A stretch of 64,000 bases of DNA from Candidatus Heimdallarchaeum aukensis. Its GTDB lineage: Archaea > Asgardarchaeota > Heimdallarchaeia > Heimdallarchaeales > Heimdallarchaeaceae. The number at the start of each line of letters is the position of its first letter. Position 1 is the stretch's first letter. The notes under the pieces are model-generated. The model had not been told where the DNA came from and searched no databases. It worked only from the letters and a program-made list of their open reading frames with translations. The DNA lies in assembly GCA_021513695.1 (NCBI GenBank), contig CP084166.1:480001-544000 (forward strand). Reading direction: 5' to 3'. Positions 44,501-61,088 of this stretch are shown here, piece by piece. A program made the position numbers and the translations under genes.

Positions 44501-44947
44501 AAGCTGATAAATGTACCAGTTAATCAAACAGAAGAGGAATTAGCAACACAAATAACTGCTGCAGTAGATGAATCAAAAGCAGTTGTTGATGTGTTTGTAT
44601 GGGAAATTGAAGCAAAAGACGATTATGGTCTTAATCAAATCTCTATTTCTATAGATGACAATCTGTCTGCAATGGAAGGAGCTGATGCAGGACCAGACAC
44701 ATGGAGTACATGGACCTACGAATGGGATAGCACAGAAGTAAAAGACGGAGCTCATTATGCGGTAATAACAATTTCTGATATTGATACAAATCAACATACA
44801 GTAAAAATTGTTATTGGTTTTACAACAAATAACGGAAATGTCGGAGAAAAGAAAACATTCGGAATTGATGGTTTCACCTACTTCTGGACTATTTTAGCAA
44901 TAATACCAATTTCAGTCATTAAAATTTTAAGAAGAAGAAAGCAATAA
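41537..44947 (+). CDS. Large surface protein: signal peptide, long Asp/Tyr/Trp-rich ectodomain, three Ig-like repeats, C-terminal TM anchor
   Basis: The N-terminus is KKVFFIINILVIMLLFSSSTFTFA. Repeated motifs are VTGEITIEAEITDDVGV, VTGTILIQAEVIDDIGL and VFVWEIEAKDDYGL. The C-terminus is FTYFWTILAIIPISVIKILRRRKQ. Confidence 0.6.
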   Translation: MKKKVFFIINILVIMLLFSSSTFTFATKQIDKNTEITITSIEEFNLKEKQVIVGGYREFCYGWVGTDGWVNSYVGFEGIGLVVGNLDFSTIPQIYIENLDWISLSTHYSEDPYEWNTNLDIDFSELSFEDAQNAADLVKEIIQQFLIVELEFEGSYSYDEWRGEWVEIISFRYSGHADWSNIKELYEGSIPREKGGIAETIDIAEAKELRFEGWYNSYEQAVVGRIGFSFGFQKTTLVGGHSISLKEIFHIADFEASSEASNPLNIYVELPDVENLDISPWYNDTQLMMYLEYHPNIEEPWIKDSAYSIIIDLSSGKYISDFIVSFDYTFIPWDLRILEEAEYYIDPRGYDSRYIGYQGSLASLSTDAFDESVLENIFNIDLWYYVNAYSVAEYANIVIDLRYTGPGPHNNDTIISYFESILGYTFTFDEVTTEYVWDYYQQQDVEITRYTSHIQNFPKADFDNLVANSIAYKHSSMINSSNILPDITRFHWKIDYLSIFDDYRHEIGFYDYSLDEFEESPTKAYTETSVPNTYTIDLLNKFGWTTFPYSSESSQMKIRFESTITDLDSVVFDPDKGNGWGYDSWFWFYSWSNYQYIYYDFNWFTETPYTTDDNGNKVDPLTGLTISFDNQFEPDTIDIEPPNINGLRYYPYPDFWDWDIWSYSYSGLNLFGVDVDDNGWLYYYDTSVGYMVPRFPGSGVDSVEGKLFYTALPTELSGVTQNVSFIWNTTANLYTTYVDFSSGDFADGEWGFEVYANDSYGNEAWMYETITVDNYDDAEYVNPASVVWTSTTPEDGATVTGEITIEAEITDDVGVFLAVIWANFGGWLFEDPDEDGIYSKTIDTTYYVDGPLEIIIEVWDMEGHHTVVSRTFTIDNVPSGNPPTITFIYPTDGETVTGTILIQAEVIDDIGLRSVTFSVDDRTPMAMSYNDETGYYEVSYNTNQLTNGMHTFYITAVDQDENVHTVTASIEIEVTGSTGTGEGNPPEYKLINVPVNQTEEELATQITAAVDESKAVVDVFVWEIEAKDDYGLNQISISIDDNLSAMEGADAGPDTWSTWTYEWDSTEVKDGAHYAVITISDIDTNQHTVKIVIGFTTNNGNVGEKKTFGIDGFTYFWTILAIIPISVIKILRRRKQ

Positions 44948-47024: not shown

Positions 47025-48260
47025 GTGAAAAAAATATATAGAATTCCTTTATTACAAGTAAAAATAATTCATGCATTACAAGATAACCCTTTGGCTTCTT
47101 ATGAAGAGATAGCAAAAAAGGTTAAAATTCCTCTTACCACACTATACAGGAAAATAAGATCACTAGAAGAAAAGAAGATCATTAGAAACACTCTTTCATC
47201 CAAAATAGCTGAAAAAATAGGTTTAACCCGCTATACATTTGAATTTAAGATAAAGTCACTTGAACAGTTTCAACTAATGCAGCTTGCTTTTCATGAGCAT
47301 CCTTTTACTTATCATTATAACAGATTTTACGGAAACCAATTTGGTTTTTATGCTAAATTTGACATTCCTGAAGGAGGAATAAAGTATTTTGAATTATTCT
47401 TAAAAGAATTAATAAATAGAGAAATGTGTGAAAGTTACAACCTATATGCATCTACAGGCCATTGGGTGGATATTCAAGAGCCTATACCAAACACAAAGCT
47501 AAATCCAAAAAGTTTCAACCTTGTTGAATTCTGGGGAAAAAGACAAGAGATGAAAGAAACAAATGGAGAGAAAATTGAGAAAATTGATATAAAAAAATTA
47601 CATCCTATTCAACTTTTAATACTTCGAGATATAAACAGGAATGCTAAGCAGAAACAGAAAGACCTTTTAGAACTTTACAAAAAAGCTTTAGAGAATGAAA
47701 AAGTGAATTCAGAAGAAACAAAAATCATTCCAGAGGCATACAAATCATTCATTGAAGAATTTTTTGAAGGTAGAAGTCATGAAGCAATAATGATGGACTT
47801 TAATCGTAAATATAAATTCGTTTTTGAAAATTTAGTCACTAATTTCAGAATTAACTTTTCTCGTAACTATTTTGAGATATATCCTATGCAAGCTTATGTT
47901 ATTAAAGATATAAGCTCTGAAGAAAGTTTCCAAACTTTAAACTTATTCAAAAAATATAGACCACCTTTCAGAGCAGGTATTGATATATTAAACAGAGGAT
48001 TGTTCATTGCTGTTACTCTCCCACCGTTCTATGCTTCAAGATTCTCATACTTAATATATAGTTCCTATTCTGATTTTAAATTTTATAACATGGACTTCTT
48101 TGGAGAGCATGGTGTGGCTTATCCTTTCTATGTAAATAACTTTGATCCAATAAAAAATGAATGGAAAACAGATAAAAAATGGATAGTAGATGATGTATTT
48201 TCAAGAATTGATGGAAAACTAAACAATGGTAATTATGGTGAAAACAACAATCACCATTAA
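47025..48260 (+). CDS. Lrp/AsnC-type HTH domain protein with a long uncharacterised C-terminal region
   Basis: The N-terminus is IIHALQDNPLASYEEIAKKVKIPLTTLYRKIRSLEEKKII. A second HTH-like stretch is LLILRDINRNAKQKQKDL. The start codon is uncertain because the GTG sits inside GGAGGTGA. Confidence 0.55.
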   Translation: MKKIYRIPLLQVKIIHALQDNPLASYEEIAKKVKIPLTTLYRKIRSLEEKKIIRNTLSSKIAEKIGLTRYTFEFKIKSLEQFQLMQLAFHEHPFTYHYNRFYGNQFGFYAKFDIPEGGIKYFELFLKELINREMCESYNLYASTGHWVDIQEPIPNTKLNPKSFNLVEFWGKRQEMKETNGEKIEKIDIKKLHPIQLLILRDINRNAKQKQKDLLELYKKALENEKVNSEETKIIPEAYKSFIEEFFEGRSHEAIMMDFNRKYKFVFENLVTNFRINFSRNYFEIYPMQAYVIKDISSEESFQTLNLFKKYRPPFRAGIDILNRGLFIAVTLPPFYASRFSYLIYSSYSDFKFYNMDFFGEHGVAYPFYVNNFDPIKNEWKTDKKWIVDDVFSRIDGKLNNGNYGENNNHH

Positions 48261-48399: not shown

Positions 48400-49512
48400 A
48401 TGGTATCGAGTGAGTTAGAATTATACATAAAAATAGCGCAAATAACTCTTATAACATTTATTCTTGCATACTTTATCTACAGAAGAATAAAAGATAAGAT
48501 TACTGGATTTAACTGGTTTATTTTCTTATTCATTTCAGCCTTAACTCAAGGTATTGTTGAAATGATTTTATATGGATTAACATCAAATGGTTCTATTTCA
48601 GAAAATTCTACTCTACAAGAAGTACATATCATTCCTTATGCAGTTGGGTTATTCACCTTATTCTTATATTGCGAACTAATAATGAGAGAAAGACCAAATG
48701 AGATATTATTGAGCTTTATGACTTTACTGATTGGAGCTTATTTAGCAACTTTTTCTCTAGAACTAGCTTTTAACTTAAATACAGATATCCTTCCTAAATA
48801 TCGTTTAAATAGATTAATTTTCAACATTTTCCAATTTTTTGTTCTATTGGAAGCAACACTAATGTTTGCACTGGATGCGAAGAGAGTTGAATATAAGAAA
48901 CTTAGAAGAATTTCTCTTGTTATAGCAATTGCAATAGGTACATCTGCAGTTTTTGCTTTCTTCAAAATATTGGAATACTGGGTTCTTCCTTTTTCCTTTT
49001 ATGGAGCGATACCTTATGGAATTTTATTTGGAGTTTTAGCAATTGAATTTATTGCCAATCCATTCTTTGTTTATTTGCTACCGTCAAGAATAAACAAAGT
49101 TGTAGTCATAGACGATTCTGGAGTTTTACTATTTGCTGTTAGAGTTGGAAAAGAAGAACCTGACATAATCGAAGACACATTACTTTCTGGAACACTTTCT
49201 GCTATGAAATCAGTAATAAAAGAAACAACAGGAACACAAACAGAACTTCAAAAAATAGAGTTCAGAGATAAATATATGATAGTTGCAGAGAATGAAGAAA
49301 AAACAATTTCTACGATTATTATATGCGACAGAGATTCATTTATGCTACAAACAGCAGCAAGACAATTTATCAACGCCTTTGCTAAAGAGTTTAAAGAACA
49401 TTTAGAAAAGTTTGATGGATCAATTGGTAGGTTTGGTGCTGCTACACATCTAGTGCGACGTATCTTTCCTTTTGTTCCACCTAAGGAAATAGTAGAAGTA
49501 AAAGAAAAGTAA
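48400..49512 (+). CDS. Multi-TM protein with a C-terminal longin/Roadblock-like domain (paralogue 1)
   Basis: The first ~230 aa are hydrophobic, with about 7 helices. The C-terminus reads KVVVIDDSGVLLFAV...LLSGTLSAMKSVIKETTG...LQKIEFRDKYMIVAE...ISTIIICDRDS plus a long helix. The terminal motif is RRIFPFVPP. Confidence 0.55.
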   Translation: MVSSELELYIKIAQITLITFILAYFIYRRIKDKITGFNWFIFLFISALTQGIVEMILYGLTSNGSISENSTLQEVHIIPYAVGLFTLFLYCELIMRERPNEILLSFMTLLIGAYLATFSLELAFNLNTDILPKYRLNRLIFNIFQFFVLLEATLMFALDAKRVEYKKLRRISLVIAIAIGTSAVFAFFKILEYWVLPFSFYGAIPYGILFGVLAIEFIANPFFVYLLPSRINKVVVIDDSGVLLFAVRVGKEEPDIIEDTLLSGTLSAMKSVIKETTGTQTELQKIEFRDKYMIVAENEEKTISTIIICDRDSFMLQTAARQFINAFAKEFKEHLEKFDGSIGRFGAATHLVRRIFPFVPPKEIVEVKEK

Positions 49513-49651
49513 TAAGTTAGGGTTCAATTCTCTTTTTTTTAGTTTCTCTTTTATTTGAATATTAATCAAAAAGTTGGAAGAAAAAAATAAATAGTTGTTT
49601 AAGAAGCTAGAGAATTAGCAAAACTTAATCATTAAAAAATTGTAGATAAAA

Positions 49652-50545
49652 ATGGAGATTGAAGAAAAAGATAAAGTAAAACATGCTAATAAGGATAAAG
49701 AGAATACGATATACGGAGATTTTAGATCTTTAGGTTTCCTATTTCTTTTTACAGTCTTAACGGCAACAATTCTTTCTCTCGTTGATTTTTCTGTCTTAAG
49801 TAATGCAAAATGGCTTTTATCCTTATTGTTTGTTGCAGATCTAATTTTGTTAATATTTATACTACTTGTTCATAGGAATTTTATAACTATAACAGGTTTC
49901 ATAATTACAGAACAATTAAAAGAGATGTTTATTCCAAAGAAAAGAAACAAAGAAAGATTTCTAAAAAAGATTAACAAGTGGAACAGAAAACAAAAATCAT
50001 ATATAAAAGATGCAAAAGAACTTAAAGAATTGATTCCAAAGCTTATTGGATTAACTCTAATTTATTATTTGCTTATTTTCACTATCTTGTTTGATCCCTC
50101 AGCACTAACAGGTTATGGAGCATATTTCACTGTTATGTATTGGGCTTTTATTCTCTTATATGCCTTTGTTTTTCTCTTCATTATGAGATTATTTAATAAA
50201 CATCCCTTAATTTCTGGAGGAATATTTTGGGGTCTAAATGGACTATCTGTTTTTGGTTTAAAAGTACTTAATCCTATTCCTTTGTCTTTATTACTTTATA
50301 TAGCTGGTAAGAAATCATCTGAAATGAATGATGCAATCATTAGCATTATGCAAAAAACATTAATTGCTAAATTTATTTTTGCAGTTTTAAATGTTGTTAG
50401 TGTAATTGGTATAATTGTTTATTCTTTTAGAAACGCAATGAACTTTAACTTTAGTCCAGACTTAATTGTTTTTAAAGAACAATCTGCAGAAGACAACAAG
50501 AAAGAATTTCGTGGAACTGATAACCAAATTAACAAAGAAGAATAG
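49652..50545 (+). CDS. Polytopic membrane protein, unknown function
   Basis: 297 aa, with a charged N-terminus followed by multiple hydrophobic helices. Confidence 0.5.
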   Translation: MEIEEKDKVKHANKDKENTIYGDFRSLGFLFLFTVLTATILSLVDFSVLSNAKWLLSLLFVADLILLIFILLVHRNFITITGFIITEQLKEMFIPKKRNKERFLKKINKWNRKQKSYIKDAKELKELIPKLIGLTLIYYLLIFTILFDPSALTGYGAYFTVMYWAFILLYAFVFLFIMRLFNKHPLISGGIFWGLNGLSVFGLKVLNPIPLSLLLYIAGKKSSEMNDAIISIMQKTLIAKFIFAVLNVVSVIGIIVYSFRNAMNFNFSPDLIVFKEQSAEDNKKEFRGTDNQINKEE

Positions 50546-50557
50546 ATATTCGCTAGA

Positions 50558-51320
50558 GGTAGTGTCTAGTTTTCTTCCGACAAAAATATTTGTGGGGACT
50601 CTAATAGTAAGATATGAAAACACAAAAACTATCTACTCTTTTTAAGAGATGCAGAGTCCCCAAAAAGATAATAATAAAAGCGATTTATGAATATATTGGT
50701 TCAAAGAATGGTTTGAGGACAGTAGCATGGAAGAATGGTTTAACGCATCAAACATTATGGTATTGGGTAAAGAAGTTCAGGCTCTTTAGGGAAAGTTTAC
50801 ATAGAGTTGTAGCAGAAAGAGGGGGAATACCAGAGATTATAGTAGTTGATGAAACAGAGATTAAGACCTCTCAAGGCTCAATATATCTGTGGTTCGCGTT
50901 AGATCCTTACAACAAGACTTTACTGGGTTTTAGTATTACTAAAGGACGGAGTAATCTTGAATGTTTACTAACTTTCCGTTATTGGTTCAAATGTTGGGGT
51001 TTTAAGCCCCGTATTGTCGTTACAGATGCAGGGGTATGGTATCCTGTCTTACTTCGTCTCGGTATCAAAATCTCTGTTATCAAAGGTGGTTTACGCTCCT
51101 ATATTGAACGTTTTAATGCCACCCTTAAGAGTTATCATTGGTTTCATTCTATTCTTCACTGTACTTGTCCTATCCGTGCCGTCTATGGCTCTACTCATCT
51201 TTCTGGTTTCCTTACTCTCTTTATGCTCCATTTTAATTTCGTTCGTCCTCATCAGAGCTTGGGACATCCTCCCCTTAGTTCTTTTTTACCTAGGAGGTGG
51301 TATAAAAACTAGACACTACC
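50558..51320 (+). mobile_element. Intact 763-bp IS (IS6-family-like) with 16-bp perfect IRs and a 10-bp target duplication
   Basis: IRL is ggtagtgtctagtttt (50558-50573) and IRR is aaaactagacactacc (51305-51320). The direct repeats attcgctaga sit at 50548-50557 and 51321-51330. Confidence 0.8.
50614..51312 (+). CDS. DDE transposase (rve/IS240-like)
   Basis: The N-terminal HTH is LTHQTLWYWVKKF. DDE candidates are VVDETEIK, VVTDAGVWY and YIERFNATLK, followed by FNFVRPHQSLG. Length is 232 aa, and the stop lies inside IRR. Confidence 0.8.
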   Translation: MKTQKLSTLFKRCRVPKKIIIKAIYEYIGSKNGLRTVAWKNGLTHQTLWYWVKKFRLFRESLHRVVAERGGIPEIIVVDETEIKTSQGSIYLWFALDPYNKTLLGFSITKGRSNLECLLTFRYWFKCWGFKPRIVVTDAGVWYPVLLRLGIKISVIKGGLRSYIERFNATLKSYHWFHSILHCTCPIRAVYGSTHLSGFLTLFMLHFNFVRPHQSLGHPPLSSFLPRRWYKN

Positions 51321-51372
51321 ATTCGCTAGAACTATCAAAGTTTTTAAATAAGTACTTCTTCCTTTTTCTAAT

Positions 51373-52479
51373 ATGGATTTAAATTTTGTAGTTTCACTTA
51401 CTATCGCAATTTTCATGTTTATTTTAGGAATTATTTTCATAGTTCAATCAATAATTAAGAAAAGAACAGCGTACGTTTTTACTTCTTCAATGTTTATAGG
51501 GATGATTGCTTCTCTTATAGAAGTCTTTAGAGTAAGTAAATTACCTAATTTGGATTTTAATTCAAGCGTTTTACTTGTAATTCATTTATCATTTTGGTGC
51601 TTGATGTATCTACTTTCTTTGATTTTCTTCATTCAGCTTGAAAAAGAAAAAATCTTATCCTATATACTTCCAGTCGTCATGATTATTTATGTTCTACACA
51701 TAACTTTCGGGATTTTTTGGATTTACTCTGGTTCTTTTCCTGATCAAGCTCAGTCAACAATAACTATGTTATGGGACTTAACTTACGCTCTCATGGGAAT
51801 ACTCACTTTCTCTTACGGTGCTTATGTCCATTTTAAAACTGGAATAAAAGCACATGAAAAAGAAGGTTATTTGTTAGGAGGAGCACTCATTTTAATAAGT
51901 ATTGGCTTCCTTTTGGGTTTCATTAAAGATTTAGGTGTAAAAGTTGATATTCAAAGTATTCCTGTTGGAGAAGTACTTAAATTAATAGGTATTTTCACCT
52001 TTATTATATTCTACATTGCAAAACCAGATTACATCTTCAGATTACCTTTCCAAATTACTTCAGTTCTTGTATTTAACAGACTTGGAATGTTAATCTATTC
52101 AGCACAATATTTGACTGAAGATGGTGATGAGGAAATAGATCCTGATGATACATCGATGGAGCTAATTACTGCAGCAGTAAATGCATTTTCAACCTTTATG
52201 AAAGAAACAACTGGAAGCGAAGAACCTCTAAAAAGAGTAAAAACAGGAGATAAACTTCTGATAGTAGAACAAGGAGATAAATGTTCTATAGCAATAATCT
52301 CTACCTCTTCTAGTTATTTCATGATACAAAGCATGAGGAAAGTAATTAAGGAACTAGAAAAGAGATATGAAAAAGAACTAGAACTTGATTATACTGACTC
52401 TACCTTTTTCAATGAAGTACCGAAACTTATTTCCTACTCTTTTCCATTCTTGGGAATACCAAAAAAAGAATTGTATTAA
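51373..52479 (+). CDS. Multi-TM protein with a C-terminal longin/Roadblock-like domain (paralogue 2)
   Basis: It has the same architecture as 48400-49512. The C-terminus reads SVLVFNRLGMLIYSAQ...ELITAAVNAFSTFMKETTG...LKRVKTGDKLLIVEQ...SIAIISTSSS. The terminal motif is SYSFPFLGIP. Confidence 0.55.
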   Translation: MDLNFVVSLTIAIFMFILGIIFIVQSIIKKRTAYVFTSSMFIGMIASLIEVFRVSKLPNLDFNSSVLLVIHLSFWCLMYLLSLIFFIQLEKEKILSYILPVVMIIYVLHITFGIFWIYSGSFPDQAQSTITMLWDLTYALMGILTFSYGAYVHFKTGIKAHEKEGYLLGGALILISIGFLLGFIKDLGVKVDIQSIPVGEVLKLIGIFTFIIFYIAKPDYIFRLPFQITSVLVFNRLGMLIYSAQYLTEDGDEEIDPDDTSMELITAAVNAFSTFMKETTGSEEPLKRVKTGDKLLIVEQGDKCSIAIISTSSSYFMIQSMRKVIKELEKRYEKELELDYTDSTFFNEVPKLISYSFPFLGIPKKELY

Positions 52480-52495
52480 AAAAAATCTTTTTTTT

Positions 52496-53617
52496 CTATT
52501 CTTCTTCTTTTTCAAAAGGAAAGACATAATTTAGTTTAAGATCATCGCGTAAAAAGATTAGGTCTCGAGCAATACTATCATTAATTGGTACACCATGCTC
52601 TCTTACTCTCTTTTCTGCTTCGTATTCTTTTTCTCCAGCAGTATAAATTCTTGATTCACCAGGAGCTTTTTTAGAGTTCCTGAGCTCTCTACATATCGAA
52701 CCAGAAATCTTTTTGAAAATATTTACATCAATAAAATGTTCTACGTTTATCGCAATAAAGAAATGACCAATCATAAAGTGCCTAAAAGAACCATCTTCGT
52801 TCAACCCACTTAAATCCTTTAGGAATTTTCCGTTCTGTAAAGCTGAAGATAATATCTCTACAACAGTAGAATAACCATACCCTTTATGTCCAGATAATTC
52901 TTCTCCCTTTCCTCCAAGAGGTAAAAGTGCAGCCTTTCCATTCACAAAATCAGAGATGAGCTGCTCAGCATCAGTTCTATACTCTCCAGTTTCAGTGTCT
53001 ATTACACAACCTAAAGGAAGATCTTTATTTTCCCGAGCATAAACTTCAACTTTTCCTCTTTGAATAATAGATGTAGCACAATCCAAAACAAAAGGAAAAG
53101 CTTCATCAGTAGGTATACCAAAAGTCAAAGGATTAGTGCCTAACATAGGCTCAACACCAAAAGTAGGTGCAACAGCAGGACGAGCATTTGTACCAGTAAT
53201 CCCTATACAGTTCTCTTTTACAGCCATAAGAGCATAATAACCAGCAATACCATAATGAGTACCATTACGAACAACAACCATACCTATACCAAACTTCTTA
53301 GCCTTAGAAATAGCAAGCTCCATAGCTTTATAGGAAATATAATGACCATTACCATGATGGGCATCAATAACAGCAATAGCATCTTTATCTTTAACAATTT
53401 CATATTTGCTAATAAGATGTTGCTTTCTCTTAATACGGTCATAATAATATTTTAATCGCTGAACACCATGACTTGTTATCCCGCGAAGATCTGACTCAAT
53501 TAAAACATCAGCACTAACTTGAGCTTCCTCAACAGGATAACCCAAAGAAACAAAAACATCTCGAATAAAATCATGCAATAAATCAACTGAAACATATTTC
53601 TGATTGGAATCTGTCAT
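52496..53617 (-). CDS. Ldh_2-family (malate/L-sulfolactate/ureidoglycolate-type) 2-hydroxyacid dehydrogenase
   Basis: Motifs seen: DLRGITSHGVQRLKYY, AHHGNGH, GTNPLTFGIP. Length is 373 aa. Confidence 0.75.
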   Translation of the reverse strand: MTDSNQKYVSVDLLHDFIRDVFVSLGYPVEEAQVSADVLIESDLRGITSHGVQRLKYYYDRIKRKQHLISKYEIVKDKDAIAVIDAHHGNGHYISYKAMELAISKAKKFGIGMVVVRNGTHYGIAGYYALMAVKENCIGITGTNARPAVAPTFGVEPMLGTNPLTFGIPTDEAFPFVLDCATSIIQRGKVEVYARENKDLPLGCVIDTETGEYRTDAEQLISDFVNGKAALLPLGGKGEELSGHKGYGYSTVVEILSSALQNGKFLKDLSGLNEDGSFRHFMIGHFFIAINVEHFIDVNIFKKISGSICRELRNSKKAPGESRIYTAGEKEYEAEKRVREHGVPINDSIARDLIFLRDDLKLNYVFPFEKEEE

Positions 53618-53959
53618 CTCATTCTTAACTTAAAATTAGTCAATATAAATATTGTTTAAAATAGAAAAAAAATAAAAGAAATTCAAAAAATAAATTTCCA
53701 AAAAAAATTATCTGTATTATCTTTACATTGCTAAATTAAATATAAAATATCCATACAAATAGTTTTTTAGATACTACAACAGAATATCGCATTTATTATC
53801 ATTTATAAAGAAGTAGCATTTTTAAAGAAATTTTTTTTTTGTTTTTTTTTGAAGCATACTGTTTTGCAAAAAAATGTAGAAAATGATAAATAAATCTTTG
53901 AAACAACTAAATAAAAAACTTGAAACATAACAATTAACATTTACTTTTTTGAGAAAAAG

Positions 53960-54523
53960 TTATGATTTTTTCATTTCAAGCTGATTTACCAACCATGTAA
54001 ATGCTTCGTTTACTCCTGTTCCGTTTATTGCACTGCAGTCAAACACTGCAAAAGTTCTATCTTTCATTTCTAAATGTAGTCCTAGCAATTGTATTAGCAT
54101 TGGTGCTTGTATTGATTCTGGTAGATCTTGTTTATTTGCTATTATCAGGCAAGGTATTTTTTCTAAATACGGATTGTTAAATACATGAACTTTTAATATA
54201 TCTCTCGCTTCTGGCAATCTTTCTATATCTGCTGCATCTATTACAAATATTACTGCTGAACTTCCTGGGTAATGCACTTCCCATAGAAATCTGAACTGTT
54301 TTTGTCCTGCTACATCTACTATAGTAATATTCCAATCTGCAAAGTTTACTGTATCTATGTTTTGTCCTATTGTTGGTACTGTATCTTGAAAGTCTCCTGT
54401 GTTTACATATTTCATTAATGTAGTCTTACCTGCTGAATCTAAGCCTAAAACGATAATTTTAGCCTTTTTTTCTGATTTAAGTTTTTTCCTTAACCAAGAA
54501 GAAAACGATAGTTTAGAGCTCAT
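53960..54523 (-). CDS. Arf/Arl-like small GTPase
   Basis: G1 is GLDSAGKTTL, G3 is DVAGQ, G4 is NKQD and G5 is CSA. The N-terminal basic amphipathic stretch is MSSKLSFSSWLRKKLKS. Confidence 0.8.
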   Translation of the reverse strand: MSSKLSFSSWLRKKLKSEKKAKIIVLGLDSAGKTTLMKYVNTGDFQDTVPTIGQNIDTVNFADWNITIVDVAGQKQFRFLWEVHYPGSSAVIFVIDAADIERLPEARDILKVHVFNNPYLEKIPCLIIANKQDLPESIQAPMLIQLLGLHLEMKDRTFAVFDCSAINGTGVNEAFTWLVNQLEMKKS

Positions 54524-54615
54524 TGTGTATTATTTCTTTATTCTAATTACCCATTAATAAAAATTGTCTAAGTCTTCAACAATAAAAAAAGAAAGTGATA
54601 AATCTTAAAAAAAAA

Positions 54616-56808
54616 TTATTGGTGTTTCTTTGCTAATTCTATTAGTTCAGGAAAGTCCATTCCTAGTTCTTTTAATTTTTCTATAGTAGGTACACCGTTT
54701 TCTGTCCATCCTCTTCTTTCATATACAGCTTTTTTCAACTTTTCATACCTTTCTTCTCTGTATTTTCTTATTGCGGCCATCTTTTCTTCTACTGTCATGT
54801 TTGTTGGATCTACACCTACTTTTTCTTTTAGTTCTTTAAGGTAGTATTTGTCTTCTCTGGACAGGTATTCTTCTTTTGTTACTGGACCCATAGCTCTAAA
54901 GGGTATAGTGTCTAATTCTTTGTAAGTTACACCTTCTGGAATGAAAAGTAAATTCATTACTCTTTGGAAGTTATAGACTCTTTCACTCATTTTAATATAT
55001 TCTCTAGAATCTATATTATTACCTGTTACACTATTGAAGTATTGGACATAATTTAGAACGTGTTCTGGCACTTTTGCAGGGTCGGCTAGATCTTCAGGAA
55101 CAGTCATTCCATGCTTTTCTATCTTTCCTTCTGCAAATTCTTTATTATCTTCTGGAACAATATCGTTCCAAGGTAACTTACATAGACCTAATAGTCCAAA
55201 GGAAGTTCTCCACATTGGGAACCACCATAGAGCTTCTGCTTTTTGTTCGAAAGTGGGCATAAAGTTATGCACCATGTCTAGAAAGATTAACCATGCTTCA
55301 TCGTGCTGTGGTCCCTTGAGTGTAAGACCATATCCTCCTTGTTGTGCAAGTGACTCTTTTGTCATATATTCGCTAAATTCTAGACCTTTAGATTCCATTC
55401 CTATATCGTCCAAAAGTTTGGCTTCTTCCTCACTCAAGTTAAACTCTTTCTTGAAGTACTCTTTCATGTATCTAATTCCTTTACCGAATATTTTACCGAA
55501 CCCATCTCCTTTTGCTACTTGGTGAATAACTTCCATTGCTCCTTCAAAATTGCCCCAAGAGAGATCTATTCCTCCAGTTCTTTCTTTGTTTAATATTCCG
55601 TATTCGTAGCACTCCATACAGAAGGCCATACCTGTTCCTACACTAATAGTATCTAAACCATAGTTATCACAATAGAAATTAACTTCAATAACATGGTCTG
55701 GGTCCCACATGTACCAGTTAGAACCTACTCCAGCAGCTGTTTCATATTCTGGACCGTCGACAGTTACTTTTTGACCTTTGTATGGTCCAGTTTTACATTC
55801 AAAACTACTCACACCATGAGTACATCCTACTGTACATCCTTTCCAACATGGGTCTGGTCCTTTTTCAAATCTCTTATAATAAGCTTCTTTACCTATTTTT
55901 TCTGCTTGTGGGTCAGAACCAAATTTGAAGTTCTTTGTTGGTAAAAGGTCAAAATCATTCATTATTGGAATCAAATGTATAGTTCCAATATTTCTCATAT
56001 CGTTTTGCTTTGGATCGAGTTCAGTTATTTCTTTACTGTGTCTCTTGGCTACTTCTTTCTCTGCTTCAGGATTAGCAGGATTGTTAGATTTGACGTTAAC
56101 ATTGCTTTTTCTTACAACTAGAGCTTTTATTTTCTTATTTCTAAATACAGTTCCTGTTCCTCCTCTTCCGGCTTGTTTATATCTTACATATCCTCTTTTA
56201 CCGTCAAACCAACTGAAATTTAAGCAACCCATATAAGCATTTTCTGCTCCAGGACCTGCAGATACAACAGAAATATTTCTTTTATCTTTTTCATCTACTG
56301 CATATCTCTCAGTAAGTATTTTTCCTATCTGAAAAGTTTCTGAAGGTAAATCTTCTGCTTCTTCGATGATTATTTTTCCATTATCTCCATCAATAAAAAT
56401 GACTAATTCTTTTTCTGCTTTACCTTGAATGGCCATAGCATCGAAACCTGCAAATTTGAGAAAAGGACCAAAATATCCTCCAACGTTTGAATCAACCAAA
56501 ATACCAGTTAATGGAGAAATGGCTGTTACAATACTTTTACCTGAACCAGGATAGTTGGTTGTTCCACCTAATGGTCCAGAAGCTATACAAAGAACATTAT
56601 CTGGGTCATCCCATTTTACTTTTTTGTCTTTAGGAATATATTTCCAAGTTAGCCAAAGATCAAATCCCCTTCCACCTATGAATTTTTCTTTCATTTCTTC
56701 TGTAACATCTTCTATTTTTGCTTCTAACGTTTCTAAATTAATGTACAATGTTTTGTTAGCATATCCTTTATCTATTACTGGAACTTCATAATTTATCTCT
56801 TTAATCAT
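54616..56808 (-). CDS. aor: Aldehyde:ferredoxin oxidoreductase family (tungstopterin enzyme)
   Basis: Motifs seen: AGRGGTGTVFRNKKIKALVV, the Cys cluster DPCWKGCTVGCTH, and C-terminal RRGWTENGVPTIEKLKELGM. Length is 730 aa. Confidence 0.9.
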   Translation of the reverse strand: MIKEINYEVPVIDKGYANKTLYINLETLEAKIEDVTEEMKEKFIGGRGFDLWLTWKYIPKDKKVKWDDPDNVLCIASGPLGGTTNYPGSGKSIVTAISPLTGILVDSNVGGYFGPFLKFAGFDAMAIQGKAEKELVIFIDGDNGKIIIEEAEDLPSETFQIGKILTERYAVDEKDKRNISVVSAGPGAENAYMGCLNFSWFDGKRGYVRYKQAGRGGTGTVFRNKKIKALVVRKSNVNVKSNNPANPEAEKEVAKRHSKEITELDPKQNDMRNIGTIHLIPIMNDFDLLPTKNFKFGSDPQAEKIGKEAYYKRFEKGPDPCWKGCTVGCTHGVSSFECKTGPYKGQKVTVDGPEYETAAGVGSNWYMWDPDHVIEVNFYCDNYGLDTISVGTGMAFCMECYEYGILNKERTGGIDLSWGNFEGAMEVIHQVAKGDGFGKIFGKGIRYMKEYFKKEFNLSEEEAKLLDDIGMESKGLEFSEYMTKESLAQQGGYGLTLKGPQHDEAWLIFLDMVHNFMPTFEQKAEALWWFPMWRTSFGLLGLCKLPWNDIVPEDNKEFAEGKIEKHGMTVPEDLADPAKVPEHVLNYVQYFNSVTGNNIDSREYIKMSERVYNFQRVMNLLFIPEGVTYKELDTIPFRAMGPVTKEEYLSREDKYYLKELKEKVGVDPTNMTVEEKMAAIRKYREERYEKLKKAVYERRGWTENGVPTIEKLKELGMDFPELIELAKKHQ

Positions 56809-56928
56809 ATTAATACACCCGAGAATATCGTTATAAATACGAAAAAAATCAACTATATAATTTTAACTCTATCTCGTCAAGTATTAAAGAAAACTAACTT
56901 TTTCTTTTAACTAAAAAGAAAGTTAACT

Positions 56929-57348
56929 TTACGAAGAATTATCAATCTTAAATTTATTAGCATTTTTGGGTTCGTGTCCAGCTTCAAAAGATTGTATCTC
57001 AAGAGTATATCTGTCAGGATCATTAAAGAAGATGTTATAAATTTGATATTTTTCGTACATACTAGGCTCTTTAGTTAGATTGACACCTTTCTCTTTAAGG
57101 TATTTCGCCCAAAGATTCACTTCATCTGGTGTTTCAACAACTAATGTTAAACATGTTTTCTCAGGATTTGAAATTTCTTCACTTGTTTCACAGAATCCCC
57201 AGTAACCATTTGAACCTATGTTATAAATTATACAGTTTGTCTGCTCTAAGGCAACTTCAAGTTCTAATAGACCAGAATAGAACTTTTTATTTTCTTCTAA
57301 ATTTTTTGTTTTCAAAAAGGTAATAGGATAAATAATTTTTGGAAGCAT
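56929..57348 (-). CDS. VOC/glyoxalase-family protein
   Basis: 139 aa. The beta-alpha-beta-beta-beta pattern shows in TFLKTKNLEENKKFYSGLLELEV and DPDRYTLEIQSF. Confidence 0.6.
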   Translation of the reverse strand: MLPKIIYPITFLKTKNLEENKKFYSGLLELEVALEQTNCIIYNIGSNGYWGFCETSEEISNPEKTCLTLVVETPDEVNLWAKYLKEKGVNLTKEPSMYEKYQIYNIFFNDPDRYTLEIQSFEAGHEPKNANKFKIDNSS

Positions 57349-57403
57349 ATATTAAATAAGTTATTCTTCTTTTAAAAATTTCTTGAGAATGTATGGATTT
57401 TTT

Positions 57404-58516
57404 TCAAACTCCAACTGTTAGTTTTGATTCATCTACAAATGGGAAGTACAATGGAATGTATTTCACTGCATCATCGAAAACAGAGGCATCTCCGCTAAAA
57501 CATACAATCTGCTCTCTAAACATTGAATTAAACTTGTTTACAAAATGTTCAAGTGAAGTGTCAAATATCCTTACCCTTCTATCAACTATTAACACTCCGA
57601 TAATATCATCTTTCTCTTTGGTTATCATGACTCTATCTTTTAGTTCAACACATTTTAATAACTGATAGGATGAATTGGTTACTTCAGAAATAAAATGAGC
57701 AAAAGCGTTAATCATTCCCCCAATTAACAAACCCTCTGATTCTTTTTTAGAATAGTTTGAAGCAGAGAAAAGAGTTGTTCCATTTTTATTAATTATTAAG
57801 AAGTTAAAAATCTCTGCAGAAGTGAATAAGACAAATTTAGGGTCAATTAAATAAATGACCAAAGTTACACCGAGAGCTAACCCAAAACCTATAGCACCAT
57901 ATGTTTCTAAAGGAACTACATGTTCCAAAAATTCCAAAATAGCCACTATAAAAGCTATAAAGAAGCTTATCCATAATAGTAATGTATGATATTGAGCTTT
58001 TTTACCTACACTCTTAACAAAGGTAAAAGTTATTCCTACTAAACATACTGTAACAACATATAGTTGAAAAAAATCTAAAAACCAAATATATAAACAGTCA
58101 TTCTTTGTTGGAACCTTCAAATTCGTAGAGATCGGGGGTAAATCAAAGAAAATATTTATCAAATAAGTAACAAATAAAGAAAAAATAATAATGTAACCTG
58201 CTTGAACTACTCTACGATCCCAAGCGTTGAAGTTACTAAAATGTATTAAAATATATAGAAATACAAGAGCATAAGGAATAATCTCTAAAGAAGGTAAATA
58301 ACTATTTTCTAAATATGCCCACTGATAACCTGCTACACGGGCAAAATAGAAAAAGAATTCTACTACACTTTGTATAATCGCCAGAATTAATGCAGCAATT
58401 AAATTTTTATAACCTTGAACTTTGTTTACTGTGCTCCGATAAGAAAAAACACCTAACATAATCAAAATAATAACAACTTGAAATAGTTTGAATATCGCTT
58501 GGCTTAGAGTTTCCAA
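57404..58516 (-). CDS. Multi-TM protein with a C-terminal longin/Roadblock-like domain (paralogue 3)
   Basis: The N-terminus aligns with paralogue 1 (YRSTVNKVQGYKN vs YRRIKDKITGFNW). The C-terminus reads NFLIINKNGTTLFSAS...LIGGMINAFAHFISEVT...LKCVELKDRVMITKE...IIGVLIVDRRV. The terminal motif is LYFPFVDES. Confidence 0.55.
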   Translation of the reverse strand: METLSQAIFKLFQVVIILIMLGVFSYRSTVNKVQGYKNLIAALILAIIQSVVEFFFYFARVAGYQWAYLENSYLPSLEIIPYALVFLYILIHFSNFNAWDRRVVQAGYIIIFSLFVTYLINIFFDLPPISTNLKVPTKNDCLYIWFLDFFQLYVVTVCLVGITFTFVKSVGKKAQYHTLLLWISFFIAFIVAILEFLEHVVPLETYGAIGFGLALGVTLVIYLIDPKFVLFTSAEIFNFLIINKNGTTLFSASNYSKKESEGLLIGGMINAFAHFISEVTNSSYQLLKCVELKDRVMITKEKDDIIGVLIVDRRVRIFDTSLEHFVNKFNSMFREQIVCFSGDASVFDDAVKYIPLYFPFVDESKLTVGV

Positions 58517-58647
58517 AGTAAATCAATTAATTGATTATATTTCTATTATATTAAATTTATGTAAAAATGCCAAAGTTACATTTTAGAAAAGATATTGAAA
58601 AAATATACTAAAACTTCTTGAATTACATATTTTTCTTTAATGAGATA

Positions 58648-58935
58648 TCATCCCCCTGCAACAAAAGGAAGTATCGATATTTCAGTTTTATCTTCAGTTA
58701 CTAGATAAGTTGACAGCTCTTCATGATGAATAGTTTTGCTATTTATCATTATATTATAAAAAGAATGTAGCTTTTTATTTGTAAATAGGAGTCCATCAAG
58801 CTCTGGATACGTCTTAGTTAAAAATTCTATTGCTTCTAAAACAGTTATTTCCTTATCTTCTAATTCAATTTCGACTTCTGCTTTATTTCCTAAAGTAGAC
58901 CTTAACTGACCAAACAAGCGAAAAATAACTCTCAT
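58648..58935 (-). CDS. MoaD/ThiS-type beta-grasp ubiquitin-like protein ending in Gly-Gly
   Basis: 95 aa. The N-terminus is MRVIFRLFGQLRSTLG and the C-terminus is ISILPFVAGG, followed directly by the stop. Confidence 0.65.
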   Translation of the reverse strand: MRVIFRLFGQLRSTLGNKAEVEIELEDKEITVLEAIEFLTKTYPELDGLLFTNKKLHSFYNIMINSKTIHHEELSTYLVTEDKTEISILPFVAGG

Positions 58936-59000
58936 TCTTTTTCCTCTGATAAGATAAAGTAGATTAAAAGAATAAAATTGTTATGTTTTGTCAATTCTTT

Positions 59001-59561
59001 TTATATAGAATTTACCTCAAAGAATTTGACTATATTTTCTATAAGAGTAATAAAAGCTCTTTCTACATTTTCTCCTGTTTTAGCTGAAGTTTCTATATAA
59101 GGTACTTCGAATCCACTCCAATTACTTAGGCTTTTGGCATAATCTGCAGCATATTCATATGGTACTGCATTAGGAGTTGAATCACGAAGATCAGATTTGT
59201 TTCCAATTAAAAGCATAGGAACAATCTTATTTTTGTTATTCTTGATTAACTCATGAATCCAATTAGGTAATAATTCATATGTTTCAGGTCTTGAAATGTC
59301 AAAAACTAGCAAAGCACCTGAAGTTCCTCGATAATATACTTCTCTCACTGCAGAAAAACGTTGTTGTCCTGCTAAATCCCATATCTGTAGAGTATACTCA
59401 ATATTATTTAGTAGCATTTTCTTTACTGCAAAGTCTGCACCTACTGTCATGGCATATCCTGATTCAAAAGTTTCTCCTAAATATCGACGTCTTAACGATG
59501 TTTTACCTACTGCTCCTTCACCAAGCAATGAAACTTTAAAGATTCTCTGCACTTTTTTCAT
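59001..59561 (-). CDS. Rab/Ras-like small GTPase
   Basis: G1 is GEGAVGKTSL, G3 is WDLAGQQRF, G4 is GNKSDL and G5 is ETSAKTGENV. There is no C-terminal Cys-containing lipidation motif; the protein ends FFEVNSI. Confidence 0.85.
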   Translation of the reverse strand: MKKVQRIFKVSLLGEGAVGKTSLRRRYLGETFESGYAMTVGADFAVKKMLLNNIEYTLQIWDLAGQQRFSAVREVYYRGTSGALLVFDISRPETYELLPNWIHELIKNNKNKIVPMLLIGNKSDLRDSTPNAVPYEYAADYAKSLSNWSGFEVPYIETSAKTGENVERAFITLIENIVKFFEVNSI

Positions 59562-59717: not shown

Positions 59718-61088
59718 ATGAGTGAAGAAACAGTTGTTATTCAAAATCCTTTACTAGTGTGTAAGTACATTAAAAAATTTACTCATTATCCAGAATTTGA
59801 TAGAATTTTAATAGATAATTTAGATTGGAAAAGAGAAGATATTATTGGAATCTCCATTATTCCTATTGTAGATACTGTTCCATCAGGCAAAAATGCAATC
59901 TTTAGAATATTTATTTCAAACATGGGAGAAACAACACAAAAGGTAAAAGTTCATGTTCGTACTTTTGGTTATTTAAGCAAAAAAGAAAAGTTAAATAGAA
60001 GCCAAATAGCATTTAAAAAATTAATTATCAACAACAATGAAGTATGGTATAGAGATGTTATCATACCAAGTGATATAAAATTAGGTAAAAACTTTTTCCA
60101 GCTTGTCGTTAAATATAAAGTAAACAAAAAGAAAAGAATAATCTATGAAATTAAAGAATATACAGAGATTATGCCTTTAGATCATATAAAACAGATTGCC
60201 AGACAAAACTTTTTAGGACTTGCCCAAAAGCCCTACATTGATCCTTCTTCAATAAGTTATTGGATATATTGCTCTCTTTTTGGTTCTAGAAATTATTCAA
60301 AAGAACCAACTTTCATTTATATAACTAAATGGATTGTTTTTCTTCTAAGTATTTCTACTATTGGTGCTTACTTCACTTTACCTTTACCTGAAATAGTTCT
60401 TTATATCAGTTCAGGAGGAGCTTTGCTTTCTTTCCTAACCTTTTTTACTGATTTAGATAGACATACAGTCCGTGAGATACATGATTTAGGTTTAACTGAA
60501 TTAAAAAGAAAAGCCTTCATAGATAACATCCCGAAAAAAACCGAATGGCTTAAGTTATTCACTCTGAAAAGTGATTATTTCTATTTCATTGAAGAAGAAT
60601 CAACTTTTGCATGGAAAACTAGTACAGATAATTCATTTAAACCAGTTATTTATTCTTTAAATCAAGTTTTAGATACACAATTAAGTATAAAAGAAGGAAC
60701 AAAAGAAGAGGAAGAAAGAATAATTGAAGAAATAATAACTAATAGGAAAATAGAAAAAATTAAAACAAAAACAAAAACGAAAGAAGAAGTAGAAGAACAC
60801 GAAGGTATTGTTTTTGAAGAAGATTTGTCCATAAGTTTTGATGCAAAGATGCAAATACTTGATAGTATAACTTCATATACTGTACCTAGCAAAGCAATTG
60901 AATTAGAAGATAGTTTTGAACTTCCTGTAGAAATAATAAAAACAGAAACATTCATAGAACCTGATTCTGTAGCTTTTGATGTTTTAGATAAACCTTTTAC
61001 AACTGATTTAGAACCAATAATTACAGACAGTGAAAGTATAGACTCTAAAGGTTCACTGAAATTCAAGAAAACAAACATAGATGTATAA
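59718..61088 (+). CDS. Hypothetical protein: N-terminal beta-rich region, two central TM helices, acidic C-terminal tail
   Basis: 456 aa. The hydrophobic pair is WIVFLLSISTIGAYFTLPLPEIVLYISSGGALLSFLTFF. The tail is E/K/D-rich. It is divergent from the Rab-like GTPase. Confidence 0.4.
   Translation: MSEETVVIQNPLLVCKYIKKFTHYPEFDRILIDNLDWKREDIIGISIIPIVDTVPSGKNAIFRIFISNMGETTQKVKVHVRTFGYLSKKEKLNRSQIAFKKLIINNNEVWYRDVIIPSDIKLGKNFFQLVVKYKVNKKKRIIYEIKEYTEIMPLDHIKQIARQNFLGLAQKPYIDPSSISYWIYCSLFGSRNYSKEPTFIYITKWIVFLLSISTIGAYFTLPLPEIVLYISSGGALLSFLTFFTDLDRHTVREIHDLGLTELKRKAFIDNIPKKTEWLKLFTLKSDYFYFIEEESTFAWKTSTDNSFKPVIYSLNQVLDTQLSIKEGTKEEEERIIEEIITNRKIEKIKTKTKTKEEVEEHEGIVFEEDLSISFDAKMQILDSITSYTVPSKAIELEDSFELPVEIIKTETFIEPDSVAFDVLDKPFTTDLEPIITDSESIDSKGSLKFKKTNIDV

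What the first reader, a model, noticed from the sequence alone, without database searches (positions are those of the whole stretch)
48400..59561. Three paralogous multi-TM + longin/Roadblock-like proteins interleaved with an Arf-like and a Rab-like GTPase
Seen: 48400-49512 (+), 51373-52479 (+) and 57404-58516 (-) each encode about 370 aa. Each has about 7 hydrophobic helices followed by a ~130-aa soluble module with a beta-beta-alpha-beta-beta-beta-alpha pattern. All three share a C-terminal FPF motif (RRIFPFVPP, SYSFPFLGIP, LYFPFVDES). Paralogues 1 and 3 also align at the N-terminus. Small GTPases sit at 53960-54523 and 59001-59561. Established: Roadblock and longin domains are GAP/GEF platforms for small GTPases (MglB-MglA, Ragulator-Rag, Mon1-Ccz1, SR). 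Inference: a membrane-embedded sensor or transporter-like domain is fused directly to a GTPase-regulatory module, giving a prokaryotic 7TM-to-small-GTPase signalling unit. I do not recognise this fusion from characterised systems.
Basis: partly seen in the sequence, partly recalled or inferred. Interest (0 to 1): 0.75.

Follow-up and report, generated by a model that had tools for sequence, protein, structure and literature searches.

The report
Asgard 7TM receptor-like proteins with longin tails
Three neighbouring genes in a Heimdallarchaeum genome belong to a large family, so far found almost only in Asgard archaea and not described in the literature I could search, in which a GPCR-shaped seven-helix membrane domain is fused to a cytoplasmic longin domain, the fold eukaryotes use as a platform for Rab/Arf GTPases; the proposed link to the two nearby GTPase genes is only weakly supported.

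Summary
The window is Ca. Heimdallarchaeum aukensis. The three ORFs are real paralogues (BLASTP E 5e-29, 2e-15, 1e-7). Each has seven TM helices, a ~140-aa C-terminal module and a near-invariant F-P-[FY] tail.

An exhaustive HMM search finds 953 50%-identity clusters at E<=1e-10. Nearly all of the best 150 keep the same ~370-aa architecture. Labelled members come from Heimdall, Kari, Hod, Hel and Odin lineages. None has a Pfam or NCBIfam assignment, and I found no paper describing the fusion.

Linkage to GTPases is weak. The Arf and Rab neighbours are conserved only as a Heimdallarchaeaceae synteny block mixed with metabolic genes. Among nine distant family members, two have a GTPase within 10 kb, which is about the background rate.

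GTPase regulation is therefore a plausible inference from the fold, not something shown here.

The parts
48400..49512 (+). Paralogue 1 (370 aa). 7TM GPCR-fold domain at residues 5-219 (nt 48412-49056). Conserved Y-x-Y-R-L-P-type linker. Longin domain at residues 231-355 (nt 49090-49464). F-P-F tail at nt 49465-49473.
51373..52479 (+). Paralogue 2 (368 aa). Same architecture, with the most divergent TM domain. It is 100% identical to a Ca. Heimdallarchaeum aukensis protein.
57404..58516 (-). Paralogue 3 (370 aa, TTG start). Same architecture, with a sub-threshold Intu_longin_1 hit at residues 263-334.
53960..54523 (-). Arf-family small GTPase (187 aa). It lies 92 bp downstream of the AFOR gene on the same strand.
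   Evidence: Pfam Arf E 1.3e-47; best PDB relatives Arf1/Arf2; Arf-AFOR adjacency is seen in most Heimdallarchaeaceae loci.
59001..59561 (-). Rab-like small GTPase (186 aa). It has no C-terminal cysteine, so no prenylation site. It is the first gene of the co-directional run Rab, MoaD/SAMP-like, paralogue 3.
   Evidence: Pfam Ras E 2.3e-46; best PDB relatives Thorarchaeota Rab, Rab1, Rab7, Ypt1; sequence; the trio is conserved in L001, L006 and L026.
58648..58935 (-). Ubiquitin-like MoaD/ThiS/SAMP1-type protein (95 aa) ending in Gly-Gly, between the Rab-like gene and paralogue 3.
   Evidence: Pfam ThiS E 3.9e-10; NCBIfam SAMP1 and moaD_arch top hits, both below cut-off.
52496..57348 (-). Context genes of the conserved synteny block: Ldh_2 dehydrogenase 52496-53617, aldehyde:ferredoxin oxidoreductase 54616-56808 and glyoxalase-family protein 56929-57348. 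Their products are metabolic and have no evident functional tie to the 7TM-longin genes.
47025..48260 (+). Winged-HTH protein (411 aa), 140 bp upstream of paralogue 1 on the same strand. It is a conserved upstream neighbour of par1 orthologues.
   Evidence: Pfam HTH_24; present upstream of par1 in about 16 loci.
49652..51320 (+). Insertion separating paralogues 1 and 2: an extra membrane-protein ORF (49652-50545) and an IS element (50558-51320) with perfect 16-nt terminal inverted repeats and an rve-type transposase (50614-51312).
   Evidence: In Ca. H. endolithica the par1-par2 spacer is only 226 bp (L006).

Best explanation
The three genes are paralogous members of a large protein family found so far almost only in Asgard archaea.

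Shown by prediction:
- A GPCR-fold seven-helix membrane domain has its N-terminus outside the cell.
- It is joined by a short conserved linker (consensus Y-x-Y-R-L-P) to a cytoplasmic TRAPP-type longin domain.
- The protein ends in a nearly invariant F-P-[FY] motif.

Inferred mechanism:
- The 7TM bundle anchors the protein and probably senses a signal. Its sequence and outer loops vary between paralogues, as in receptor families.
- The conserved longin domain is the cytoplasmic output. Most likely it acts as a dimeric docking or regulatory platform for a soluble partner.
- By analogy with TRAPP, Mon1-Ccz1, SRX-SRbeta and MglB, that partner is most probably a Rab/Arf-type small GTPase. The GTPase would then be recruited or switched at the membrane. 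This would suit Asgard Rab-like proteins such as the one here, which lack lipid anchors.

The Arf-like and Rab-like genes in this window are candidate partners at best. Their proximity reflects a lineage-specific synteny block, not a family-wide operon.
For: Paralogy.

Seven TM helices and a bbabbbaa module: pLDDT 80.9, pTM 0.80; pLDDT 90, pTM 0.85.

Longin fold:
- All top 50 Foldseek PDB hits are in the longin/Roadblock superfamily.
- The profile against PDB sequences gives only TRAPPC1/Bet5/Trs23 as its top five hits, E 0.0095-0.29, and shares the L-x-x-G-x-x-x-[SA] helix motif.
- Sub-threshold Pfam hits are Fuz_longin_1 (9 of 117 members), Sybindin (5) and Intu_longin_1 (2).

Topology: K+R count is 744 in loops 1/3/5 against 338 in the much longer N-terminus plus loops 2/4/6. 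107 of 117 sequences follow this rule.

Family size and conserved architecture: 2683, 953 and 100 representatives at E<=1e-3, 1e-10 and 1e-30. Most of the best 150 are 350-390 aa and match nearly the whole profile; shorter ones cover part of it.

Taxa: Heimdallarchaeaceae, Kariarchaeaceae, Hodarchaeales, Helarchaeota, Odinarchaeota.

Conservation is concentrated in the cytoplasmic module: G241 99%, F356 and P357 94%, P228 89%.

Local linkage:
- The run Rab, MoaD-like, par3 has gaps of 65 and 131 bp and is conserved in L001, L006 and L026.
- An Arf gene lies 2-9 kb from par1 in about 18 Heimdallarchaeaceae loci.
- A Kariarchaeaceae member has a Rab-like gene 30 bp away, in convergent orientation.

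The Rab-like protein has no C-terminal Cys.
Against: - No interaction or activity was tested.
- The family-wide gene neighbourhood shows no enrichment of GTPases. Two of nine distant loci have one within 10 kb, about the background of roughly 36 GTPases per ~3 Mb genome.
- In the window the Arf gene is paired with AFOR rather than with a paralogue. Unrelated genes are inserted between par1 and Arf in other species.
- Longin domains also serve functions unrelated to GTPases, as in SNAREs and adaptor sigma/mu subunits, and these are among the structural matches.
- The GP motif of the known longin GAPs is absent.
- GPCR similarity is structural only, at 6-13% identity. Sequence-level TM hits are insignificant and go to channelrhodopsins.
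- All structures are predictions.
Confidence: 0.5

Rival explanations
1. The architecture is as described, but the longin domain does not act on GTPases. It would serve as a trafficking or assembly module in the manner of SNARE longins or adaptor sigma/mu subunits. It would mediate dimerisation, autoinhibition or binding of coat-, SNARE- or ESCRT-like partners, making the proteins cargo receptors or membrane organisers.
Against: The only sequence-level signal points to the TRAPPC1/Bet5/Trs23 GEF core. Local Rab and Arf neighbours are conserved in Heimdallarchaeaceae, and one is adjacent in Kariarchaeaceae.
Confidence: 0.25
2. The 7TM domain is not a receptor but a transporter, channel or membrane enzyme. 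The longin domain would be a regulatory or scaffolding appendage. The resemblance to GPCRs would then be a generic property of seven-helix bundles.
For: There is no significant sequence similarity to any GPCR family. The weak profile hits are to channelrhodopsins, E 0.04-0.4. Conserved polar residues lie in or at the ends of the helices: E92 in 74% and E at position 169 in 51%.
Confidence: 0.15
3. The gene arrangement in the window is historical synteny with no functional meaning. The two GTPases work with other partners, for example Arf with the adjacent AFOR operon. The three paralogues arose by local duplication.
For: - The block mixes Ldh_2, AFOR, glyoxalase, MoaD-like, TPP-enzyme and HTH genes.
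- The par1-Arf distance varies from 1.8 to 7.6 kb, with unrelated insertions.
- L026 lacks the Arf gene altogether.
- Distant family members show the background GTPase density.
- Tran et al. report that MK-D1 GTPase genes generally do not share operons with RB or longin genes.
Against: The block persists down to 48% protein identity despite insertions and rearrangement. In L012 and L015 the Rab and MoaD genes have moved to the par1 side. Two GTPases within 11 kb is unlikely at the background rate (Poisson mean about 0.13). This estimate is post hoc.
Confidence: 0.5

Closest known systems
TRAPP core longin subunits TRAPPC1/Bet5 and TRAPPC4/Trs23 (Sybindin family, the GEF platform for Rab1/Ypt1)
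   Different: TRAPP subunits are soluble and work in a multi-subunit complex with Bet3-type subunits. Here the longin domain is covalently tethered to a 7TM bundle and carries a family-specific F-P-[FY] tail. The Pfam Sybindin threshold is not reached.
Eukaryotic GPCRs (class T TAS2R, class D Ste2, class C, adhesion) and the GPCR-like domain of LYCHOS/GPR155
   Different: There is no detectable sequence homology. There is no evidence of heterotrimeric G-protein coupling. The output domain is fused rather than recruited.
Bacterial 7TMR-DISM / HisKA_7TM receptors (7TM domains fused to diverse intracellular signalling modules)
   Same: The logic is the same: a prokaryotic 7TM sensor fused directly to a cytoplasmic output module. 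A few family members give sub-threshold Pfam hits: 4 and 2 of 117, best E 1.1e-3.
   Different: Known outputs are kinases, cyclases, GGDEF domains and phosphatases. I know of no longin output and found none. There is no extracellular DISMED-type domain, and the N-terminus is about 6 residues long.
Actinobacterial conservons / G-protein systems (CvnA sensor kinase, CvnB Roadblock, CvnC, CvnD Ras-like GTPase) and MglA-MglB
   Same: These are prokaryotic systems in which a membrane sensor, a Roadblock-superfamily protein and a small GTPase work together.
   Different: Their components are separate proteins in a strict operon and use a Roadblock fold with an N-terminal helix. Here the fold is longin, it is fused to the membrane domain, and there is no fixed operon.
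SRalpha SRX domain with SRbeta
   Different: The polarity is reversed. In SR the GTPase is membrane-anchored and the longin-like domain is soluble.

Membership tests
Longin domain (fold superfamily) | beta-beta-alpha-beta-beta-beta-alpha-alpha sandwich without an N-terminal helix | tested here: met
   The AF2 C-terminal model has pLDDT 90. Its elements are E10-17, E22-28, H38-56, E64-66, E71-76, E82-88, H93-115 and H122-134. The order is the same in the full-length model.
Longin domain (fold superfamily) | Structural similarity to solved longin domains | tested here: met
Sybindin/TRAPPC1-C4 family (PF04099) and Fuz/Intu longin families | Score above the curated Pfam threshold | tested here: not met
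   Only sub-threshold hits were found: Sybindin in 5 of 117 members (best E 0.0043), Fuz_longin_1 in 9 of 117 (best 1.2e-4) and Intu_longin_1 at 16.1 bits against a cut-off of 23.7. Profile hits to PDB TRAPP longins have E 0.0056-0.29. Distant homology is plausible. Family membership is not established.
Longin/Roadblock GTPase platforms (TRAPP, Mon1-Ccz1, MglB, Ragulator) | Binds a small GTPase and changes its nucleotide state | not testable with these tools
   No multimer prediction or biochemistry was available.
Roadblock/LC7 (MglB type) | An N-terminal alpha-helix before beta1, and a Robl_LC7 profile match | tested here: not met
   beta1 follows the TM7 linker directly. Robl_LC7 scores 13.4 bits against a cut-off of 23. 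Roadblocks align over fewer residues than longins.
GAP-type longins (FLCN, NPRL2, SMCR8) | G-P motif in the beta1-beta2 loop, as described in PMC12290439 | tested here: not met
   The invariant G241 is followed by Pro in only 5 of 117 members.
G-protein-coupled receptors | Seven TM helices, N-terminus outside, C-terminus inside | tested here: met
   The positive-inside count is 744 against 338, and 107 of 117 sequences follow the rule. This is prediction only.
G-protein-coupled receptors | GPCR-type helix packing | tested here: met
G-protein-coupled receptors | Sequence homology to a GPCR family | tested here: not met
   No Pfam GPCR family is hit. The best receptor hit in the profile search against the PDB has E 7.8.
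G-protein-coupled receptors | Coupling to heterotrimeric G proteins | not testable with these tools
   I did not examine whether these genomes encode G-alpha proteins.
7TMR-DISM_7TM (PF07695) / HisKA_7TM | Profile match above threshold | tested here: inconclusive
   4 and 2 of 117 members hit, with best E 1.1e-3 and 2.6e-3, below the cut-off of 29 bits.
Microbial rhodopsins | Schiff-base lysine in TM7 | tested here: not met
   No conserved Lys in the TM7 columns.
Arf family (ORF 53960-54523) | Arf profile above threshold, with Arf proteins as nearest solved relatives | tested here: met
   162 bits against a cut-off of 22.3. Arf1/Arf2 at E 4e-35.
Rab family (ORF 59001-59561) | Ras/Rab profile match and a C-terminal prenylatable cysteine | tested here: inconclusive
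   Ras profile 157.8 bits. The nearest relatives are Thorarchaeota Rab, Rab1 and Rab7. The protein ends ...KFFEVNSI with no Cys. It is therefore Rab-like rather than a canonical Rab.
Conservon / MglAB-type operon | Fixed operon of sensor, Roadblock protein and GTPase | tested here: not met
   Neighbourhoods of nine distant members lack a consistent GTPase partner.

The most novel reading that the evidence does not exclude
Asgard archaea possess a large, diversified receptor system in which GPCR-fold 7TM sensors signal directly through a fused TRAPP-like longin domain. That domain would recruit or activate lipid-anchor-less Rab/Arf-type GTPases at specific membranes.

This would be a prokaryotic forerunner combining two hallmark eukaryotic inventions: 7TM receptor signalling and longin-based Rab/Arf GEF platforms. 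It would also offer a possible answer to how Asgard small GTPases find membranes.
Probability: 0.3. Interest if true: 0.9.

Novelty: new variant of a known kind. Interest (0 to 1): 0.72.

Why it matters
Asgard genomes encode dozens of Rab-, Arf- and Rag-like GTPases and over a hundred longin/Roadblock families. Almost nothing is known about which regulator serves which GTPase, or how these GTPases reach membranes. Asgard Rab-like proteins lack prenylation sites, and Asgard proteins expressed in HeLa cells did not target membranes.

A pan-Asgard family that places a longin platform on the cytoplasmic face of a receptor-shaped 7TM protein gives a concrete, testable candidate for membrane-localised GTPase control. 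It also bears on two open questions: the origin of the GPCR fold, which a 2026 review treats only through microbial rhodopsins, and the origin of TRAPP/Mon1-Ccz1-type GEFs.

Even if the GTPase link fails, an unannotated family with hundreds of 50%-identity clusters in the closest archaeal relatives of eukaryotes deserves a name and a structure.

Tried and rejected
Only the par1 orthologue alignment A3 worked, so the genome scan returned orthologous loci that are not independent of each other.
- A degenerate DNA pattern for Y-x-Y-R-L-P-F-D...G in metagenome contigs returned 24 loci. None encodes a family member, so all are chance hits.
- The afdb50 fold library was unavailable, so I could not check whether AlphaFold DB holds annotated look-alikes.
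- Roadblock classification was rejected in favour of longin.
- GAP-longin classification was rejected because the GP motif is absent.
- Rhodopsin classification was rejected because TM7 has no conserved lysine.
- The N-terminal extensions of longer family members (407-448 aa) have no recognisable sensor domain.
- Supplementary tables of Liu et al. (asCOG list) are not held. I could not check whether an asCOG already covers this family.
- The Arf N-terminus has only a moderate hydrophobic moment, 0.3-0.48. I make no claim about an amphipathic anchor.
- One literature query with synonyms was uninformative.

Full report
**Source and observation**

The window has about 30% G+C. Paralogue 2 is 100% identical to a protein of the closed Ca. 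Heimdallarchaeum aukensis genome.

The three ~370-aa proteins are true paralogues:
- par1 vs par3: 28% identity over the full length, E 5e-29.
- par1 vs par2: 30% identity over the C-terminal 156 residues, E 2e-15.
- par2 vs par3: E 1e-7.

Hydropathy gives seven hydrophobic segments in par1 and par3 and six above threshold in par2. The C-terminal F-P-F is invariant in a 47-sequence alignment. It is 94% conserved in 117 diverse members. Pfam confirms an Arf-family GTPase and a Ras/Rab-like GTPase. Their nearest solved relatives are Arf1/Arf2, and Thorarchaeota Rab, Rab1, Rab7 and Ypt1.

**C-terminal module**

Pfam gives only sub-threshold Robl_LC7 and Intu_longin_1 hits. The full-length AF2 model of par1 has pLDDT 80.9 and pTM 0.80. 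A C-terminal-only model built on a diverse 43-sequence alignment has pLDDT 90 and pTM 0.85. Both give beta-beta-alpha-beta-beta-beta-alpha-alpha with no helix before beta1. That is the longin topology, not the Roadblock one.

- All top 50 Foldseek hits against the PDB belong to the longin/Roadblock superfamily.
- Longins align over 115-128 residues and Roadblocks over 89-105.
- A profile of the module searched against all PDB sequences returns TRAPPC1, Bet5 and Trs23 as its five best hits, E 0.0095-0.29. These hits share the beta1-beta2-alpha1 signature.
- The GP motif that marks the FLCN/NPRL2/SMCR8 GAP longins is absent.

**Membrane domain**

Sequence identity is only 6-13%, and no GPCR profile is hit. 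This is therefore fold resemblance, not demonstrated homology. A few members give sub-threshold hits to the bacterial receptor domains 7TMR-DISM_7TM and HisKA_7TM.

Across 117 members, K+R totals 744 in loops 1/3/5 against 338 in the much longer N-terminus and loops 2/4/6. 107 of 117 sequences obey the rule. So the N-terminus is outside and the longin domain is cytoplasmic. There is no conserved TM7 lysine, so this is not a rhodopsin.

Conservation is concentrated in the cytoplasmic module and the linker (G241, P228, F356, P357). The TM part is variable, apart from an acidic residue at the cytoplasmic end of TM3 (E92, 74%) and a Y..N-P..Y stretch at the end of TM7. These positions recall the E/DRY and NPxxY microswitches. 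I could not superpose coordinates, so this is only a lead.

**Family**

The word-indexed search found only 37, 9 and 3 close homologues, all from Heimdallarchaeaceae apart from one hit labelled Zixibacteria, and none with a Pfam domain. The exhaustive HMM search changed the picture. It found 2683 representatives of 50%-identity clusters at E<=1e-3, 953 at E<=1e-10 and 100 at E<=1e-30. Most of the best 150 are 350-390 aa and match nearly the whole profile; the shorter ones cover part of it.

Labelled members come from Heimdallarchaeaceae, Kariarchaeaceae, Hodarchaeales/Hodarchaeota, Helarchaeota and Odinarchaeota. Two odd labels (Bathyarchaeota and Zixibacteria) may be binning errors; I did not check this. 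Clustering 117 members gives 28-45 subfamilies at 25-30% identity. Several members occur per genome, for example three in this window, a fourth on another contig of the assembly that holds L026, and three in L033. NCBIfam has no model for them.

**Neighbourhood**

Across 27 Heimdallarchaeaceae loci, down to 48% protein identity, a block recurs. Its order is: wHTH protein, par1(+), optionally par2(+), Ldh_2(-), variable genes, Arf(-), AFOR(-), glyoxalase(-), and optionally par3(-), MoaD/SAMP-like(-) and Rab-like(-).

In the window the seven minus-strand genes are co-directional, with gaps of 65, 131, 55, 120, 92 and 342 bp. However:
- The constant pairs are Arf-AFOR and par1-Ldh_2.
- The par1-Arf distance varies from 1.8 to 7.6 kb, with beta-lactamase, luciferase-like and unknown genes inserted between them.
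- L026 lacks the Arf gene.
- In L012 and L015 the Rab and MoaD genes sit on the par1 side, separated from par1 by TPP-enzyme genes and two opposite-strand genes.

For nine loci of distant family members (about 170 kb in total), one has an adjacent Rab-like gene (Kariarchaeaceae, 30 bp, convergent). One has an Arf gene 9.9 kb away. Seven have none. That is about one GTPase per 85 kb. The background rate, from 291 GTPases in 8 Asgard MAGs and my assumed genome size of about 3 Mb, is roughly the same.

This is not strong evidence against a GTPase function. Tran et al. note that Asgard GTPases generally do not share operons with RB or longin genes.

**Mechanism**

Shown by prediction: a GPCR-fold anchor with N-out/C-in topology, a cytoplasmic TRAPP-like longin domain, a short conserved linker and a conserved C-terminal motif.

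Inferred: the longin domain is the output module, and it docks or regulates a soluble partner. That partner is most probably a small GTPase, because this is what TRAPP, Mon1-Ccz1, MglB, SRX and Ragulator longin/Roadblock platforms do. The local Rab-like protein also lacks a lipid-anchor site.

I give this about 0.5. The main rival, at about 0.25, is a longin role unrelated to GTPases, as in SNARE or adaptor longins. A non-receptor role for the 7TM domain gets about 0.15. Independently of these, I give about even odds that the two GTPases in this window are not the cognate partners.

**Comparison and novelty**

The closest known systems are:
- the TRAPP longin core, by fold and weak sequence similarity;
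- GPCRs and LYCHOS, by fold;
- bacterial 7TMR-DISM receptors, by architecture logic;
- actinobacterial conservons and MglAB, which combine a sensor, a Roadblock protein and a GTPase as separate proteins.

None of these has a 7TM-longin fusion. The searched literature mentions no such architecture. This includes the Asgard GTPase/Roadblock structural survey, the Asgard diversity paper with its 130 Roadblock-superfamily asCOGs, the Asgard Arf paper, the longin-GAP survey, a 2026 review on GPCR origins and a 2026 Asgard review. The asCOG supplementary tables were not available, so prior cataloguing without discussion cannot be excluded.

I classify the finding as a new variant of known kinds: a new domain architecture and an unnamed large family. 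Interest is about 0.72.

Noticed in passing
window 50558-51320 (and 49652-50545): An IS element sits about 53 bp upstream of the paralogue 2 start codon. It has perfect 16-nt terminal inverted repeats (GGTAGTGTCTAGTTTT) around an rve-type transposase. Together with an extra 297-aa membrane-protein ORF, it separates par1 from par2. In Ca. H. endolithica the two genes are only 226 bp apart.
   Followed up: partly
window 53960-56808; L001, L004, L006, L009, L012, L015, L016, L019, L022-24, L028, L030: The Arf-family GTPase gene lies directly downstream of a tungsten-type aldehyde:ferredoxin oxidoreductase gene, on the same strand and 92 bp away in the window. This holds in nearly all Heimdallarchaeaceae loci. 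It is an unexplained pairing of a trafficking-type GTPase with a redox enzyme.
   Followed up: partly
window 58648-58935: A MoaD/ThiS/SAMP1-like ubiquitin-fold protein ending in Gly-Gly sits between the Rab-like gene and paralogue 3. It could belong with AFOR cofactor synthesis or be a protein modifier.
   Followed up: partly
L020 32-3025 (-): In one MAG the divergent neighbour of the par1 orthologue, 75 bp away, is a protein of about 1000 aa. It has HEAT/adaptin-like repeats and a C-terminal Ras/Roc-like GTPase domain, and it is cut by the contig end.
   Followed up: no
L033 2-2356 and 9980-11697: A Kariarchaeaceae contig carries three family members within 11 kb: two divergent tandem copies plus P0053. 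A Rab-like GTPase gene lies 30 bp from P0053 in convergent orientation.
   Followed up: partly
par1 residues 92 and 217-228 (window 48673-48675 and 49048-49083): There is a conserved acidic residue at the cytoplasmic end of TM3 (E in 74% of members). There is also a Y..N-P-[DN]-Y-x-Y-R-L-P stretch at the cytoplasmic end of TM7. These positions are reminiscent of the E/DRY and NPxxY microswitches of class A GPCRs. I did not test this by superposition.
   Followed up: no
window 57404-58516 (-): Database entries for the par3 orthologue are 351 aa and start 19 codons downstream. The TTG-start ORF restores TM1 and aligns with par1, so the public annotation is probably truncated.
   Followed up: partly
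window 59718-61088 (+); L001 19929-21119: The 456-aa protein after the Rab-like gene is a conserved neighbour. Its homologue in L001 carries a weak precomputed Presenilin hit, but the window copy has no Pfam hit at E<=1.
   Followed up: no
P0045 (L005), P0073, L011: Family members occur in MAGs labelled Zixibacteria, Bathyarchaeota and Thorarchaeota. The first two labels lie outside Asgard. Thorarchaeota is Asgard, but L011 is about 50% identical to a Heimdallarchaeaceae protein. Mis-binning is one possible explanation.
   Followed up: no
window 2998-15538 and 41537-44947: Very large ORFs lie upstream of the studied region: 1506 aa, 2653 aa, and 1136 aa with Big_7-type repeats and a C-terminal TM anchor. 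I did not examine them.
   Followed up: no
L012 4226-5303: Split TPP-enzyme genes (N- and C-terminal TPP-binding domains) lie between the Rab-like and MoaD-like genes. With the adjacent Ldh_2 gene this resembles a sulfopyruvate decarboxylase/sulfolactate dehydrogenase set. That interpretation is from memory and was not tested.
   Followed up: no
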